A DNA stretch of 12,061 nucleotides from a virus. Its lineage: Duplodnaviria > Heunggongvirae > Uroviricota > Caudoviricetes. Positions 1,633 to 8,815 of this stretch are shown here, one piece after another; the first letter of the stretch is position 1, and every line of letters starts with the position of its first letter. Where the stretch lies: IMG/VR virus record IMGVR_UViG_2574180227_000017; one strand, written 5' to 3'. The translations under genes and the position numbers were made by a program. The notes under the pieces are model-generated. The model made no database searches, was not told where the DNA came from, and saw only the letters and a program-made list of their open reading frames with translations.

Positions 1633-1725
1633 AAAAACGGTGTATACCGTTTAAAAACGGTGGGAACTGTTTTTACCCATATCTGATGATTTACCGTATT
1701 TGTCACCGGAATACACCGGATTCAC
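1633..1725 (+). promoter_or_regulatory. operator-like repeats upstream of alpA
   Basis: Inverted repeat AACGGT-GTAT-ACCGTT (1636-1651). Direct repeat AAAAACGG at 1633 and 1653. Direct repeat ACCGGA at 1705 and 1715. Confidence 0.3.
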
Positions 1726-1738
1726 AAGGTAAATCACG

Positions 1739-1945
1739 ATGGAAGCAATCAGAAAAATTATCTTTCGCCAGGAAGTAAAAAAAATTATCCACATCAAGGC
1801 AGACAGCACGCTGCAAAGCATGATCAACGCCGGAGAATTTCCGCAGGGTTTTCGCGTTGGTTTACGCCGTCGCGGATGGTATGAGGATGATGTGTTGTCC
1901 TGGCAGAAAGAACGCGAAGAGGAAGCACGCGGAACGGCTGCTTAA
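1739..1945 (+). CDS. alpA: AlpA-family phage regulatory protein (excisionase-like HTH)
   Basis: 68-aa protein. The ...INAGEFPQGFRVGLRRRGWYEDDVLSWQ... region matches the AlpA/Vis-type pattern (FP ... GW.E.E...W). Position immediately downstream of int is typical for PICI and P4-like elements. Confidence 0.8.
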   Translation: MEAIRKIIFRQEVKKIIHIKADSTLQSMINAGEFPQGFRVGLRRRGWYEDDVLSWQKEREEEARGTAA

Positions 1946-2093
1946 CGGGTATCACAGATATGACAAACACGAAAAAAGCGGCCCCGATATGGAGCCGTCT
2001 TTCTGAACAGATAACCCGCTGCGCTGTTTGTGTGTGTGATCCCAAACATAAGCACGGGGATGATAGCCGCTATCAGGCTAGTGGGCAATGCAA

Positions 2094-2432
2094 TCAGTCT
2101 GGTTCAGTTCGTTGCCATAACTGCGAAGCTCTCTCCTTTGATGAGTATTCTTTAAGGTACTTCTCAAGGGCAAAAGAACACGGCGCGAATCGTTCTGATT
2201 CATGCTCTTTCTTTCTGCGTCGTCTTTTTCGTGCAGGTGATGTTTTTTCGGTTGATTCTTCGTTGGTCATTGTGTGCGCCTGTAAAGCAATGCGCCGGAG
2301 TACCTCACACCACGGCGCTGATAGTTTTTATCCTTTGGGTTCTATGCCGCGTTGCTGTAATTCTTTGCGGATTATTCGCTTTATCCAGGCAGCAAGAGAA
2401 TCATCGCCGTCCTGTTGTTGTGCCTTTTCCAT
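2094..2432 (-). pseudogene. possible interrupted small ORF (34-aa ORF from ATG 2432, in-frame TAA at 2328-2330, frame then stays open into a 58-aa ORF from ATG 2270)
   Basis: Hand translation of the minus strand gives a charged, helix-like sequence (MEKAQQQDGDDSLAAWIKRIIRKELQQRGIEPKG * ... MTNEESTEKTSPARKRRRRKK...) in one frame with a single internal stop. It is divergent from the candidate promoter at 2501. Could equally be two unrelated short ORFs. Confidence 0.25.
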
Positions 2433-2500
2433 CTTTTCCCGTAAGTCAGGATCTAAACGGAACTGGAACGGAGGATTACCACGCCTTTCGTTTTTGTGTG

Positions 2501-2556
2501 TTGACACGTTAATTACACCTCATGTAATGTATTTATGTGTAATGACACATTACACA
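2501..2556 (+). promoter_or_regulatory. candidate early promoter (TTGACA 2501-2506, 16-nt spacer, TGTAAT 2523-2528) with a perfect palindrome TGTGTAATG-ACA-CATTACACA (2536-2556)
   Basis: Perfect -35 hexamer, imperfect -10. A 9-bp inverted repeat sits just downstream, and a third TGTAATG half-site overlaps the -10. Confidence 0.35.
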
Positions 2557-2635
2557 CAATCAACACAAAAAGCAAAGCCCCGCACTGTAGGAGCAGTAAC
2601 GGGGCTTCTAACCAACAACGTAAACTAGGAGCCGT

Positions 2636-3194
2636 TATGGTTGCCGTAAATCATATACCACACCTTGTACACACACAAACGGCCTTTGTGTGGCGTTTTC
2701 TGGCACTGAGTGCCGGAGAAAAAAACCGCTTGATCGCCACCAGCAAAAATGGCTATGATTCCCGCGCACCTCATAAAACGGGTGTCGGGATTAGCCTCCT
2801 GAAAACAACTGAAGCGCACAGCACGCGCCCCGCGTGTTTTTTTGTGCCGCATAGTCACACCTTATCAATGGTGGGCTGTACGGGGGCGGAGCAATCCGCG
2901 CCGGTTTCTTCAGTGTCCGGTAAGGCTAACCCTGTACAGTCCGCCACCAGCGAAATTAGCCTTTTGCGTGGCGGTTATCTTAACCACACTGAGGAGGCTG
3001 CCAACATGGCTACTATCCCTACCCTTGTACATTCTCAAACCGCATTTATCTGGCGCTTTATCATCTTTGGCGCGTCAGAATCTCAAATCATCCACGTAAC
3101 CGCCTGGACGGAACGCGAAGCGCGTAGCCGTTGCCCGTCCGGTTGTGTTGCTGTATTCGCCGCCCGTATTCGTCAGGGGTCACATCATGCGTAA
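2636..3194 (+). CDS. hypothetical protein with C-terminal ~60-aa module, possibly Icd-like (internal SD+ATG at 3006 could express the module alone)
   Basis: SD TAGGAG before ATG 2636 and SD GAGGAGG before in-frame ATG 3006. C-terminal module MATIPTLVHSQTAFIWRF...TEREAR...FAARIRQG is paralogous to the C-terminus of ORF 3187-3654, and a degenerate copy (HLVHTQTAFVWRF) sits near the N-terminus. Differences between copies are enriched for synonymous changes. Confidence 0.4.
2822..2843 (+). terminator. intrinsic terminator-like hairpin inside the leader/ORF (possible attenuator)
   Basis: CACGCG-CCC-CGCGTG followed by TTTTTTT. A related G-TTTTTTT-GTG element recurs at about 3310-3325. Confidence 0.45.
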
Positions 3195-3654
3195 AAACCG
3201 CTTGCAAAAAATTATCACGGGGCTGTATGCTTCCCCCGTCGCCCACATGGCGACCGGGTTTGACAGCCTGAATACTACAGCGGACAGCCGCTTACATTCC
3301 GATATGCGGTTTTTTTGTGTCCGTAAACCTACCCATACCCGCATTATGGCGGGGCGTAACGGGGGAGCCTTTGCGCTCGCTGGTTCCTGTAGTGCCAGTC
3401 TGTCAACCCTGTTACGTCTCGCCACCATGTTTGACAGCGTAGTAGCGAGACTCCTTAATTTCACTACAGGAGCCTTTCACATGGCTGTATTCGCACGCCC
3501 TTATTTTGTCTGGCGCTTTATGCAGTGCCTGACAGACAGCATTGCAATATTCACCGTTACCGCTGCCACTGAGCGCGAAGCACGTGCACAGCTGCCGCAC
3601 GCACATCTGATTTTTGTCGCCCGTATTCGTCAGGGGGAAACCTATGCACAATAA
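3187..3654 (+). CDS. hypothetical protein with C-terminal ~58-aa module, possibly Icd-like (internal SD+ATG at 3481)
   Basis: ATG 3187 overlaps the stop of the upstream ORF. C-terminal module MAVFARPYFVWRF...TEREAR...FVARIRQG is paralogous to 3006-3194. The N-terminal half has poor protein-like composition and may be RNA rather than coding. Confidence 0.4.
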   Translation: MRKNRLQKIITGLYASPVAHMATGFDSLNTTADSRLHSDMRFFCVRKPTHTRIMAGRNGGAFALAGSCSASLSTLLRLATMFDSVVARLLNFTTGAFHMAVFARPYFVWRFMQCLTDSIAIFTVTAATEREARAQLPHAHLIFVARIRQGETYAQ

Positions 3655-7749: not shown

Positions 7750-8804
7750 TGACAGTAAAAGCAATAGCACTTAACACTAACCAGCTTTTTGCGTACCTGA
7801 ATCGCGAGGATATTGCGGAATTTAAATTCAGTCCGCTGTTTACCGCGCTGTTTTTCCCGAACGTGGCGACATTCAACACACAGGACATCATGTTAGATAA
7901 CCTGGATATTGAAGAAGTCACTATGTCGGCGTTTTGTTCGCCTATGGTTGGTAGCCAGGTTCAGCGCGATAAAGGGTACGAAACAAGCATTATTCGCCCT
8001 GGCTACATGAAGCCAAAACACGAAATCGATCCATTAAAAACAATAATGCGCATGGCTGGAGAAGATCCGGCACAGCTTAACGACCCTACCTACCGCCGTA
8101 TGCGCCTGATTACTGGCAACATGCGCCGCCAGATAAACGCCATTAAAGCGCGCGTGGAATGGCTGGCGGTGAATGCGATAACGACCGGAAAAAACATCAT
8201 TGAGGGCGAAGGCATAGAACGCTATGAAATCGACTGGAAAATACCGGAAAACTGCATCATAGAGCAGGCCAAGGGTAAAAAATGGTCTGAGCAGGATAAA
8301 GACATACACGACCCAATATATGACATTGAACTATACGCAGATCAGGCAGGTTGCCCCGCCAACGTCATGATTATGGGCGTTGATGTATGGCGCATGTTAC
8401 GCAGCTTTAAAAAATTCCGTGAACTGTACGATCTCTCCCGTGGTTCAGAATCCGCCGCAGAGCTGGCATGTAAAAACCTGGGAGAAGTGGTGAGCTTTAA
8501 AGGCTATCTTGGTGATCTGGCCCTTATCGTCTATTCCGGCAAATACACTGACAGCGACGGCACAGAAAAATATTTCCTTGAGCCTGATTTGCTGGTCCTG
8601 GGCAACACCAACAATAAAGGGCTGGTGGCCTATGGTGCGATTATGGAACAGGAAGCGGTAAGAACGGGCGCAACGCAAAACATGTTTTACCCGAAAAACT
8701 GGATTGAAGACGGCGATCCGGCGATTGAGTACGTGCAGACACACAGCGCACCGCAGCCTGTTCCGGCAGATATTCGCAAATTTGTTACCGTCAAAATTGG
8801 TTAA
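7749..8804 (+). CDS. major capsid protein, lambda gpE family
   Basis: 351 aa. Multiple blocks align with lambda gpE as recalled: FKFSPLFTALFF vs FKFDPLFLRLFF, PGYMKPKHEIDP vs PGYVKPKHEVNP, EDPAQLNDPTYRRMRLI vs EDPQNLADPAYRRRRII, LGDLALIVYSGKY vs YGDVAIVVYSGQY, YPKNWIEDGDPA vs YPKNWVTTGDPA. Confidence 0.92.
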   Translation: MTVKAIALNTNQLFAYLNREDIAEFKFSPLFTALFFPNVATFNTQDIMLDNLDIEEVTMSAFCSPMVGSQVQRDKGYETSIIRPGYMKPKHEIDPLKTIMRMAGEDPAQLNDPTYRRMRLITGNMRRQINAIKARVEWLAVNAITTGKNIIEGEGIERYEIDWKIPENCIIEQAKGKKWSEQDKDIHDPIYDIELYADQAGCPANVMIMGVDVWRMLRSFKKFRELYDLSRGSESAAELACKNLGEVVSFKGYLGDLALIVYSGKYTDSDGTEKYFLEPDLLVLGNTNNKGLVAYGAIMEQEAVRTGATQNMFYPKNWIEDGDPAIEYVQTHSAPQPVPADIRKFVTVKIG

Positions 8805-8815
8805 CGGTGGATTCT

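What the first reader, a model, noticed from the sequence alone, without database searches (positions are those of the whole stretch)
2094..2432. Possible interrupted minus-strand gene divergent from the early promoter; the long plus-strand ORF 1960-2628 looks like its antisense shadow
On the minus strand one frame is open from about 2500 to 2094 except for a single TAA (2328-2330). It encodes a charged, helix-like sequence, unlike the Cys/Ser/Arg-rich translation of the overlapping 222-aa plus ORF, and the two share third codon positions, the classic shadow-ORF relationship. A small divergent gene at this position, next to a palindromic operator, would fit a repressor-like regulator that has acquired a nonsense mutation, or two short genes.
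Basis: inference. Interest (0 to 1): 0.4.

Follow-up and report, generated by a model that had tools for sequence, protein, structure and literature searches.

The report
Repressor gene hidden inside translated leader ORF
The "interrupted" minus-strand gene is really two intact small genes, the first a widely conserved repressor-like protein, and they sit antisense inside a long plus-strand reading frame that evolution keeps open, as in the eta gene of satellite phage P4, rather than being a mere shadow.

Summary
One minus frame is open from 2507 to 2094 apart from TAA 2328-2330, and it shares third codon positions with plus ORF 1960-2628.

1. TAA is not a nonsense mutation. ORF 2328-2507(-) is a complete 59-aa ribbon-helix-helix (RHH) protein. 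Its stop sits at about the same place in 73 loci from about 36 genera. Substitutions show strong selection on its frame.

2. Its N-terminal strand occurs in several variants. Each variant goes with different repeats over the adjacent rightward promoter, which fits a repressor and its operator.

3. ORF 2094-2270(-) is a second, Escherichia-only small gene. It has a conserved 21-aa core, a fixed 57-nt spacer after the RHH gene, and a minus-strand terminator after it. It is probably real.

4. The plus ORF shows no amino-acid constraint but is not a plain shadow. In relatives this frame stays open for 200-600 codons, far beyond the minus genes. It often runs in frame into the Icd/Kil-like gene. 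Synonymous codons in the RHH gene that would create TGA in it are about 3-fold depleted.

This matches phage P4 eta/kil, where translation protects read-through transcription. The window is an EcCICFT073-like phage-inducible island. All function is inferred.

The parts
2328..2507 (-). Intact 59-aa RHH (Arc/CopG-like) regulator gene, with GTG start at 2505-2507 and native TAA stop at 2328-2330. A GAGG Shine-Dalgarno lies about 10 nt upstream.
2094..2270 (-). A 58-aa small basic protein gene, with a disordered Lys/Arg-rich N-terminus and one long helix. It is probably co-transcribed with the RHH gene and is restricted to Escherichia and Shigella.
   Evidence: It has 94 clusters, mostly 57-66 aa, all from Escherichia or Shigella. 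It is intact in every E. coli locus examined. In the core EHESERFAPC..LKEY the substitution rates are NN 0.38 against SS 2.82, and SN against NS is 6 against 1. Overall SN against NS is 21 against 14, p=0.024. AF2 gives a helix at residues 29-55 with pLDDT 70-87. PGAP annotates it in some genomes.
2271..2327 (-). A 57-nt (19-codon) spacer between the two minus genes. Being a multiple of three, it keeps both genes in the one antisense phase that is compatible with the plus ORF.
   Evidence: The same 57-nt spacing is seen in loci L002, L079, L080, L086 and L087. The downstream genes of other genera are mostly also in frame 0 relative to the RHH gene.
1969..1997 (-). Intrinsic terminator of the minus-strand unit: stem at 1979-1997, followed by a U-run.
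   Evidence: The terminator scan finds it. The RNA fold is -17.3 kcal/mol with z=-4.2. The same hairpin, or a different one with a U-tail, lies at this position in diverged E. coli loci.
1960..2628 (+). An eta-like plus-strand ORF of 222 codons, open from 1891. It starts 14 nt after the alpA stop and runs antisense through both minus genes and across the rightward promoter. It ends at TAG 2626-2628, which overlaps the Shine-Dalgarno of the next ORF.
   Evidence: There is no amino-acid constraint on it (SN rate is about equal to SS rate). In relatives the co-phased plus frame stays open for 100 or more codons rightward of the RHH start in 38 of 82 loci, against 1 and 5 of 82 for the other two frames. 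Leftward it does so in 31 of 82, against 4 and 1 of 83. It ends exactly at the Icd-like stop in 8 of 14 E. coli loci. Within RHH genes, NNT codons before CA number 22 against 70.2 expected; the control is 19 against 19.2. P4 eta has the same layout.
2501..2530 (+). Rightward promoter-like site in the position of P4 PLE: -35 TTGACA at 2501-2506 and a weak -10 TAATGT at 2525-2530. The -35 hexamer is the reverse complement of RHH codons 1-2.
   Evidence: Coordinates are from direct reading of the sequence. TTGACA lies at the RHH start in 38 of 44 distinct type-1 loci. The consensus scan did not call this promoter because the -10 matches only 3 of 6.
2512..2555 (.). Candidate RHH operators. O1 is ATTACA(2512)-N5-TGTAAT(2523). 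O2 is TGTAAT(2538)-N5-ATTACA(2549). Hexamer centres within each are 11 bp apart. They cover the spacer and -10 of the promoter and the region around +1.
   Evidence: The repeats are found. An O2-like palindrome is kept in 40 of 44 distinct type-1 loci. Other variants of the RHH N-terminal strand have different repeats at the same place, for example ATGGTAATTACCAT twice with the KRSPPYQMRL variant.
2637..3194 (+). Next plus ORF of 185 aa, with SD AGGAG at 2627-2631 and ATG at 2637. It reads through the isrK and C4 RNA genes and ends in an Icd/Kil-like domain. Its start is 8 nt after the stop of ORF 1960-2628.
   Evidence: The ORF and its translation are. NF033153 matches it at E=5.8e-18. Rfam places isrK at 2766-2842 and C4 at 2864-2951. 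The same arrangement, a stop 8-15 nt before an ATG, occurs in 12 context-distinct loci of this class.
1739..1945 (+). alpA/vis-type HTH gene immediately upstream of the eta-like ORF.
   Evidence: It matches Pfam Phage_AlpA at E=0.0028, below the family cut-off. PGAP calls it 'helix-turn-helix transcriptional regulator'. P4 vis occupies the same position before eta.

Best explanation
The window is an EcCICFT073-type phage-inducible chromosomal island, related to P4 in its early region.

Between alpA and the island's constitutive rightward promoter lies a small leftward operon. It consists of a 59-aa RHH protein gene (2328-2507), a 58-aa basic small-protein gene (2094-2270) and an intrinsic terminator (about 1969-1997).

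Inferred: RHH dimers bind the paired TGTAAT/ATTACA hexamers (2512-2555). These overlap the -35/-10 spacer, the -10 and the start region of the rightward promoter, and also the RHH gene's own promoter region. The RHH protein would therefore repress the rightward promoter and regulate itself. The sequence of its N-terminal beta-strand would set which operator it recognises.

The whole operon is embedded antisense in plus ORF 1960-2628. This ORF is the positional counterpart of phage P4 eta. It starts just after alpA (vis in P4) and crosses the internal promoter. In many relatives it is fused in frame to the Icd/Kil-like gene. In this window it instead stops 8 nt before that ORF's ATG.

Inferred from the published account of P4: when AlpA switches on transcription from upstream, ribosomes translating this ORF keep the transcript from being terminated in the C4/isrK immunity leader, so replication and packaging genes are reached. 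On this view the act of translation matters, not the product. That would explain three things:
- the plus ORF looks like a shadow, with no amino-acid constraint;
- it is nevertheless kept free of stops;
- the minus genes sit in the one antisense phase, with a 57-nt spacer, that allows the plus frame to stay open.

Shown here: gene integrity, conservation, fold, direction of selection, covariation of operator with strand variant, maintenance of the open frame, and stop avoidance. Inferred: DNA binding, repression, translation of the plus ORF and protection from termination.
For: RHH gene:
- 117 homologous clusters of about 59 aa.
- Stop position conserved in 73 loci.
- Top fold matches are all RHH proteins.
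- Weak matches to YlcI/YnfO and VapB in NCBIfam, and a strong YlcI/YnfO match for the sister variant in CFT073.
- Selection acts on the minus frame: rates SN 27.7 against NS 5.6, p=1.7e-50.

Operator:
- Repeats at 2512-2555.
- Each N-terminal strand variant has its own repeat set at the same position, while the C-terminal halves of the protein stay nearly identical.
- The O2 palindrome is kept in 40 of 44 type-1 loci.

Minus-strand unit:
- Terminator, replaced by different hairpins at the same site in other loci.
- Base composition is reversed at 2001-2500, with AT skew -0.26.

Small ORF.

Eta-like ORF:
- Long open frames in the co-phased frame only.
- In frame with the Icd-like domain and contained in the open stretch in 11 of 22 loci where the domain was detected.
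- The open frame ends at the annotated Icd-like stop in 8 of 14 E. coli loci.
- TGA-creating codon pairs are depleted, 22 against 70.2 expected, while the control is 19 against 19.2.
- The stop lies 8-15 nt before the next ATG in the window's class of loci.

P4 comparison:
- The P4 ORF 8168-8812 ends in Kil, which is an Icd-like family member at E=1.6e-21.
- The published description says eta translation is coupled to the alpA homologue and prevents termination, and that CI/seqA homologues occur in PICI Bro zones (PMC10111431).
- AlpA activates its own promoter and downstream genes in EcCICFT073 (PMC6092414).
Against: - There are no expression data of any kind for either strand.
- The -10 of the rightward promoter is weak, and no good minus-strand promoter was found.
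- In this window the plus ORF is not in frame with the Icd-like domain.
- In 21 of 75 RHH homologues the plus frame is broken inside the gene, so an open frame is not universal.
- The plus ORF has no detectable sequence similarity to P4 Eta.
- Counts across loci are not phylogenetically independent.
- Support for the small ORF is only moderate (p=0.024, 16 sequences).
- P4 itself has no antisense gene within eta.
Confidence: 0.62

Rival explanations
1. One reading: a single minus-strand regulator gene of about 111-138 aa was split by a recent nonsense mutation (TAA 2328-2330).
For: One frame is open across both parts, with a single stop.
Against: Nearly all homologues of the upstream part are 55-71 aa. 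The few longer ones carry N-terminal extensions or unrelated C-termini, and none continues into the downstream ORF sequence. The stop lies 16-23 codons after the conserved Trp, usually 19, in 73 loci and uses all three stop codons. The downstream ORF has its own ATG, is confined to Escherichia, and is replaced by unrelated genes in other genera.
Confidence: 0.02
2. The plus ORF 1960-2628 is a pure antisense shadow with no function. The long open frames in relatives arise from the permissive phase, composition and shared ancestry.
For: There is no amino-acid constraint on the plus frame. The phase that shares third positions is the one most prone to shadow ORFs. The frame is broken in 21 of 75 homologues. 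In the window it ends before the Icd-like ORF and in a different frame. PGAP often does not annotate it.
Against: The frame stays open for 100 or more codons to the right of the RHH start, where there is no minus gene, in 38 of 82 loci, against 1 and 5 of 82 for the other frames. It is in frame with the Icd-like domain in many operator types and genera. TGA-creating codon pairs are depleted about 3-fold inside RHH genes but not in control genes. The stop always falls at the next gene's ribosome-binding site. P4 provides the precedent.
Confidence: 0.2
3. The two minus genes form a type II toxin-antitoxin pair, with the RHH protein as antitoxin and the small basic protein as toxin, rather than a promoter repressor plus cargo gene.
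For: The order, RHH first and small protein second, is typical of toxin-antitoxin operons. There are weak matches to VapB and a VapB12 fold match. JGI names some relatives 'HicB family' or 'RelE'.
Against: The small protein matches no toxin family. It is absent outside Escherichia, whereas the RHH gene persists alone or with unrelated neighbours. A 57-nt gap separates the genes instead of an overlap. The operators overlap the island's rightward promoter and covary with the RHH strand variant. The RHH gene always sits at the same place in the island's regulatory region.
Confidence: 0.08
4. The plus ORF encodes the real, functional protein (an Eta/Bro-network protein), and the minus ORFs are its shadows.
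For: Gene callers and PGAP annotate the plus ORF in some genomes. 178 representative proteins match it.
Against: The direction of selection is unambiguous for the RHH frame, and for the core of the small ORF. The RHH protein folds confidently and matches a curated family in sister loci. The boundaries of the plus ORF vary from 130 to 600 codons.
Confidence: 0.03

Closest known systems
Phage P4 eta/kil nested genes. Eta is an ORF of 197-199 codons starting after vis and upstream of the PLE promoter, and ending with the 65-aa Kil. (Forti et al. 1999, J Bacteriol 181:5225, recalled from memory; described in PMC10111431.)
   Same: The ORF starts right after the alpA/vis gene, crosses an internal constitutive promoter and the immunity RNA region, and ends in or is coupled to an Icd/Kil-like domain. 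P4 Kil belongs to the same NCBIfam family. Only openness of the frame appears to be selected.
   Different: P4 eta has no antisense genes inside it. The window's ORF has no detectable sequence similarity to Eta. In this window it is a separate cistron that stops 8 nt before the next ATG, rather than an in-frame fusion. Its role against termination has not been tested here.
Arc and Mnt of phage P22 immI, and RHH repressors in general (CopG, AmrZ, NikR N-domain)
   Same: It is about 55 aa with strand-helix-helix architecture. Arc and AmrZ are among the top fold matches. The operators consist of paired hexamers 11 bp apart overlapping a promoter. Like mnt, the gene is divergent from the regulated operon. 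The regulated operon is of the immI type, with C4-like RNA and an icd-like gene, as in P1 and P7.
   Different: There is no significant sequence match to any of them. DNA binding has not been tested. The gene is embedded antisense in a translated ORF.
YlcI/YnfO family (NCBIfam NF041551), uncharacterised proteins of the E. coli DLP12 and Qin prophages
   Same: Sister variants at the same locus, such as CFT073 C_RS30120, match at 67 bits and PGAP gives them this name. The window's protein shares a near-identical C-terminal half with them.
   Different: The window's protein scores 20 bits against a cut-off of 30, because its N-terminal strand is a different variant. The family has no assigned function.
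EcCICFT073 and other Gram-negative PICIs (Fillol-Salom et al. 2018, PMC6092414)
   Same: The gene order is the same: int, alpA, Icd-like/Bro zone, DUF4222, primase, SSB, capsid E, decoration D and a Nu1-like protein. The CFT073 island has the same pair of minus genes.
   Different: That paper describes these islands as transcribed in one direction and says the existence of a repressor is unclear. The leftward RHH operon is not part of that description.

Membership tests
Ribbon-helix-helix (Arc/MetJ/CopG) superfamily | A fold of about 45 residues: N-terminal beta-strand, then helix A, then helix B | tested here: met
Ribbon-helix-helix (Arc/MetJ/CopG) superfamily | Significant sequence match to a curated RHH family | tested here: not met
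   No Pfam RHH family matched at E<=1. No PDB sequence matched at E<0.4. Only sub-threshold matches to YlcI_YnfO_N and VapB were found.
Ribbon-helix-helix (Arc/MetJ/CopG) superfamily | Dimer that binds repeated operator half-sites through the paired strands | not testable with these tools
   The evidence is indirect only: hexamers 11 bp apart, and covariation between strand variant and operator.
YlcI/YnfO family (NF041551) | HMM score at or above the curated cut-off of 30 bits | tested here: not met
   The window's protein scores 20 bits, E=5e-4. The sister variant in CFT073 scores 67.4 bits.
P4 eta-type ORF | Starts immediately downstream of the vis/alpA gene and upstream of the internal constitutive promoter | tested here: met
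   The alpA stop is at 1945. The ORF's ATG is at 1960 and the frame is open from 1891. The TTGACA hexamer at 2501 lies inside the ORF.
P4 eta-type ORF | Ends in frame with the Kil/Icd-like coding sequence (nested genes) | tested here: not met
   In the window the ORF stops at TAG 2626-2628, 8 nt before the ATG at 2637, which starts an ORF in another frame. The feature is met in relatives: 8 of 14 E. coli loci and 11 of 22 loci where the domain was detected.
P4 eta-type ORF | Frame kept open by selection without constraint on the amino-acid sequence | tested here: met
P4 eta-type ORF | Translation of the ORF prevents premature (Rho-dependent) termination of transcripts from the upstream promoter | not testable with these tools
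   This feature is known for P4 only (PMC10111431).
P4 eta-type ORF | Sequence homology to P4 Eta upstream of Kil | tested here: not met
   A tblastn search with the plus ORF against 50,697 phage records hit only Pasteurella phage Pmp8, not P4.
Shadow ORF (non-functional antisense ORF) | The open frame is confined to the extent of the real gene on the other strand | tested here: not met
   The frame extends 121 nt beyond the RHH start and 134 nt beyond the end of the small ORF in the window, and by hundreds of nt in relatives.
Type II toxin-antitoxin module | The downstream gene belongs to a toxin family | tested here: not met
   The 58-aa protein has no Pfam or NCBIfam match. The CFT073 homologue also has none.

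The most novel reading that the evidence does not exclude
The 59-aa RHH protein is the missing repressor and immunity-specificity determinant of Gram-negative phage-inducible islands, with its operator specificity swapped through its beta-strand. It is encoded as a genuine antisense overlapping gene inside an ORF that is selected only for ribosome transit, to shield the transcript from termination. If so, one stretch of DNA is under protein-level selection on one strand and under 'stay open' selection on the other.
Probability: 0.35. Interest if true: 0.75.

Novelty: new variant of a known kind. Interest (0 to 1): 0.55.

Why it matters
Gram-negative PICIs have been described as transcribed in one direction only, with no identified repressor (PMC6092414). 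A conserved leftward RHH gene beside the internal promoter, in interchangeable specificity variants, is a concrete candidate that can be tested by deletion and by DNA-binding assays.

The locus also offers a clear, statistically supported bacterial case of antisense overlap in which the two strands are under different kinds of constraint. It explains why RefSeq annotates the same locus in three incompatible ways.

In practice, genome annotation of these islands should call the 59-aa gene. The long plus ORF should be treated as an eta-like translated leader, not as an 'Icd-like pseudogene'.

Tried and rejected
- Pfam and PDB sequence searches gave no usable match for the RHH protein.
- The pairwise Nei-Gojobori dN/dS comparison on the small ORF (0.32 for the sense frame, 0.46 for the antisense frame) discriminated too weakly, because the two frames share third positions. 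I replaced it with a four-class test (synonymous or non-synonymous in each frame), counted on a tree.
- A tblastn search with the window's Icd-like peptides found the domain in only some of the loci, and not in P4. BLASTP of P4 Kil against the window's Icd-like ORF found nothing. The NCBIfam HMM did link them.
- The consensus promoter scan found neither the rightward promoter nor a leftward one in 2500-2600, so the promoter assignments rest on TTGACA conservation alone.
- Forti et al. 1999 could not be retrieved. The P4 eta account therefore rests on my memory, on the P4 sequence and on the summary in PMC10111431.
- The literature search found no functional work on YlcI/YnfO or on RHH genes in PICIs.
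- The toxin-antitoxin reading was considered and judged unlikely.
- My first regular expression for operator O2 was wrong and returned 0 of 44. The corrected one returned 40 of 44.

Full report
**1. Observation**

Reading 2507-2094 on the minus strand gives one frame with a single stop, TAA at 2328-2330. The ORF list splits this frame into 2328-2507(-), 59 aa with a GTG start, and 2094-2270(-), 58 aa with an ATG start. The overlapping plus ORF 1960-2628 is 222 aa and rich in Cys, Ser and Arg. Both frames place their third codon positions on coordinates divisible by three, so the stated phase relation is correct. AT skew reverses to -0.26 over 2001-2500, whereas the plus-strand genes of the window have positive skew.

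**2. Context**

The window matches an E. coli chromosomal island inserted next to tRNA-Pro and yejM, at 99.9% identity. Its gene content is:
- integrase, an alpA-type HTH gene and Icd-like ORFs;
- DUF4222, a D5_N/DUF5906 primase and SSB;
- capsid E, decoration protein D and a Nu1-like protein.

This is the organisation of EcCICFT073-type Gram-negative PICIs. The CFT073 island itself is a relative. Rfam finds isrK at 2766-2842, C4 RNAs at 2864-2951 and 3342-3429, and a C4 target at 3225-3274. This is a P1/P4-type RNA immunity leader just to the right of the finding.

**3. The upstream minus ORF is a complete, conserved gene**

- It has 117 homologous clusters, nearly all 55-71 aa, across the Enterobacterales, Orbales and Pasteurellales.
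- The few longer entries carry N-terminal extensions or unrelated C-termini. None continues into the downstream ORF sequence.
- In 73 genomic loci from about 36 genera, the ORF stops 16-23 codons after its conserved Trp, usually 19. TGA, TAA and TAG are all used. TAA 2328-2330 is therefore the native stop, not a nonsense mutation.
- NCBIfam gives a sub-threshold YlcI/YnfO match for the window's protein and a strong one (67 bits) for the sister variant in CFT073.

Because the two frames share third positions, I classed each substitution by its effect in both frames and counted events on a neighbour-joining tree:

| Class (RHH frame / plus frame) | Events | Rate |
|---|---|---|
| Silent / amino-acid-changing | 335 | 27.7 |
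| Silent / silent | 790 | 31.5 |
| Amino-acid-changing / silent | 88 | 5.6 |
| Changing / changing | 545 | 4.7 |

The comparison of 335 against 88 gives p=1.7e-50 (the pairwise version is). Selection acts on the minus-strand protein. The plus-frame protein sequence is essentially unconstrained.

**4. Repressor-like features**

The protein's C-terminal half is nearly invariant. Its N-terminal strand region, the DNA-reading element in RHH proteins by established knowledge of the fold, occurs in several variants: RRGNPPFQFRL, GKGNKQIALRV, KRSPPYQMRL and KERLVVQLRL.

Directly upstream of the gene, the window has ATTACA(2512)-N5-TGTAAT(2523) and TGTAAT(2538)-N5-ATTACA(2549). Hexamer centres within each pair are 11 bp apart. 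These repeats overlap a perfect TTGACA at 2501-2506 and the region downstream of it.

Each strand variant has its own repeat set at the same position. The KRSPPYQMRL variant, for example, has ATGGTAATTACCAT twice. The O2-type palindrome is kept in 40 of 44 distinct loci of the window's variant. TTGACA, the reverse complement of RHH codons 1-2, is present in 38 of 44.

DNA binding and repression are inferred, not shown. The -10 is weak and no convincing leftward promoter was found.

**5. The downstream minus ORF**

- Its homologues come only from Escherichia and Shigella: 24 clusters with the single sequence and 94 with a profile. Most are 57-66 aa, and identity falls to about 40%.
- It is intact in all E. 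coli loci examined, always 57 nt after the RHH stop.
- On 16 distinct sequences the class test gives 21 events against 14, p=0.024.
- In the 21-codon core (EHESERFAPC..LKEY), double-non-synonymous changes run at 0.38 against 2.82 for double-synonymous changes. The termini evolve fast.
- AF2 predicts a disordered basic N-terminus and one long helix.
- A strong minus-strand terminator follows at 1979-1997. Diverged loci have different hairpins with U-tails at the same place, which argues for a leftward transcript covering both genes.
- In other genera the slot after the RHH gene holds unrelated genes: peptides of about 50 aa with a TM segment and Cys residues, a second RHH gene, or proteins of 147-192 aa.

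I conclude that this is probably a real, fast-evolving accessory gene of unknown function.

**6. The plus ORF is not just a shadow**

Searching the 222-aa translation against 1.84 billion representative proteins returned 178 hits of 49-500 aa. Many cover only the part antisense to the RHH gene. This prompted a closer look.

- In E. coli relatives this plus frame is open for 166-433 codons. In 8 of 14 loci it ends exactly at the stop of the annotated Icd-like gene.
- Across 84 loci the median open stretch is 191 codons, and 41 loci have 200 or more.
- Rightward from the RHH start, where there is no minus gene, the co-phased frame stays open for 100 or more codons in 38 of 82 distinct loci. The other two plus frames do so in 1 and 5 of 82.
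- Leftward from the RHH stop the figures are 31 of 82, against 4 and 1 of 83.
- Where an Icd-like domain was detectable, it was in frame and inside the open stretch in 11 of 22 loci.
- Inside RHH genes, a T-ending codon before a CA-starting codon would create TGA in the plus frame. Such pairs occur 22 times against 70.2 expected from the same amino acids elsewhere in the gene. The window's other genes show 19 against 19.2.
- In 21 of 75 homologues the frame is nevertheless broken.

In the window's own class of loci, the plus ORF ends about 120 nt right of the RHH start. The stop lies 8-15 nt before the ATG of the first gene of the leader. Here TAG 2626-2628 overlaps AGGAG at 2627-2631, ahead of the ATG at 2637. 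That ORF runs through isrK and C4 and ends in an Icd-like domain.

**7. Comparison with P4**

In P4 (NC_001609) the ORF 8168-8812(-) follows vis. It contains the three-Met start of Eta and ends with the 65-aa Kil. Kil matches the Icd-like family at E=1.6e-21.

PMC10111431 summarises the P4 biology as follows. A constitutive promoter lies inside eta. The CI RNA and seqA cause early termination. Eta translation is coupled to the alpA homologue and prevents termination of transcripts from the upstream late promoter. CI and seqA homologues (Rfam C4 and isrK) occur in PICI 'Bro zones'. PMC6092414 shows that AlpA activates its own promoter and downstream genes in EcCICFT073. It also states that these islands are transcribed in one direction and that a repressor is not known.

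The window's plus ORF has the position and the selective signature of eta. It has no sequence similarity to Eta. Here it is coupled to the Icd-like ORF rather than fused to it. P4 has no antisense gene inside eta. The embedded RHH operon is the new element.

The minus genes and their 57-nt spacer sit in the single antisense phase that lets the plus frame stay open, so the minus frame appears continuous apart from the RHH stop.

**8. Verdict**

The finding is real and more interesting than proposed, but for a different reason. It is not a broken gene with a shadow. It is two intact leftward genes, one a repressor-like RHH protein with operator specificity variants, overlapped antisense by an eta-like ORF that is kept open.

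The components are of known kinds: RHH repressors, P4 eta/kil, C4/isrK immunity and PICIs. Their combination appears to be undescribed in the literature I could search.

RefSeq annotates the locus inconsistently: as minus genes, as a long plus ORF, or as an 'Icd-like pseudogene'.

All functional statements are inferences that need the experiments listed under next steps.

Noticed in passing
window 2766-3654: The RNA-immunity module is duplicated. The first copy is isrK 2766-2842, C4 2864-2951 and an Icd-like domain at 3039-3191. The second is a C4 target (a1b1) at 3225-3274, C4 3342-3429 and a second Icd-like domain at 3502-3651. Long plus ORFs (2637-3194 and 3145-3654) read straight through the RNA genes.
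   Followed up: partly
window 2575-2607 (+ TCTAACCA 2608-2615): A stem-loop, AAGCCCCG...CGGGGCTT followed by TCTAACCA, is conserved in the leader of every operator type and genus examined. It is probably a leader RNA element. It did not reach any Rfam gathering score.
   Followed up: no
window 2076-2089: The block GGCT(A/G)GTGGGCAAT, just 3' of the small minus ORF, is almost invariant (one A/G difference) in 8 diverged E. coli loci whose flanks differ. It overlaps a minus-strand promoter-like site, TTGCCC-17-TATCAT at 2088..2060. Its function is unknown.
   Followed up: no
L001-L003, L077-L096 (E. coli loci homologous to window 1700-3200): RefSeq/PGAP annotates the same locus in three incompatible ways: the minus-strand 59-aa gene with or without the 58-aa gene; the long plus ORF as 'hypothetical' or as a 310-aa 'Icd-like protein' (L089, L090); or a plus-strand 'Icd-like/hypothetical pseudogene, missing C-terminus' (L003, L077, L078, L084).
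   Followed up: partly
window 2501-2507: The first two codons of the RHH gene (GTG/ATG TCA) are the reverse complement of the -35 hexamer TTGACA(C/T) of the rightward promoter. The RHH mRNA must therefore start inside the rightward promoter region. This holds in 38 of 44 distinct loci of this variant.
   Followed up: partly
L006, L010, L019, L045, L046 (about 4-170 nt after the RHH stop); L041, L043, L052; L011, L013, L029: The slot downstream of the RHH gene carries varied cargo in other genera: peptides of about 50 aa with a TM segment and two Cys, a second RHH paralogue, or proteins of 147-192 aa. Most are in the same reading frame as the RHH gene. It looks like an accessory-gene ('moron') site expressed together with the repressor.
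   Followed up: no
L026, L034, L052, L061, L079, L083: Some islands carry two RHH paralogues of different strand variants in tandem or nearby. This suggests stacked or recombined immunity regions.
   Followed up: no
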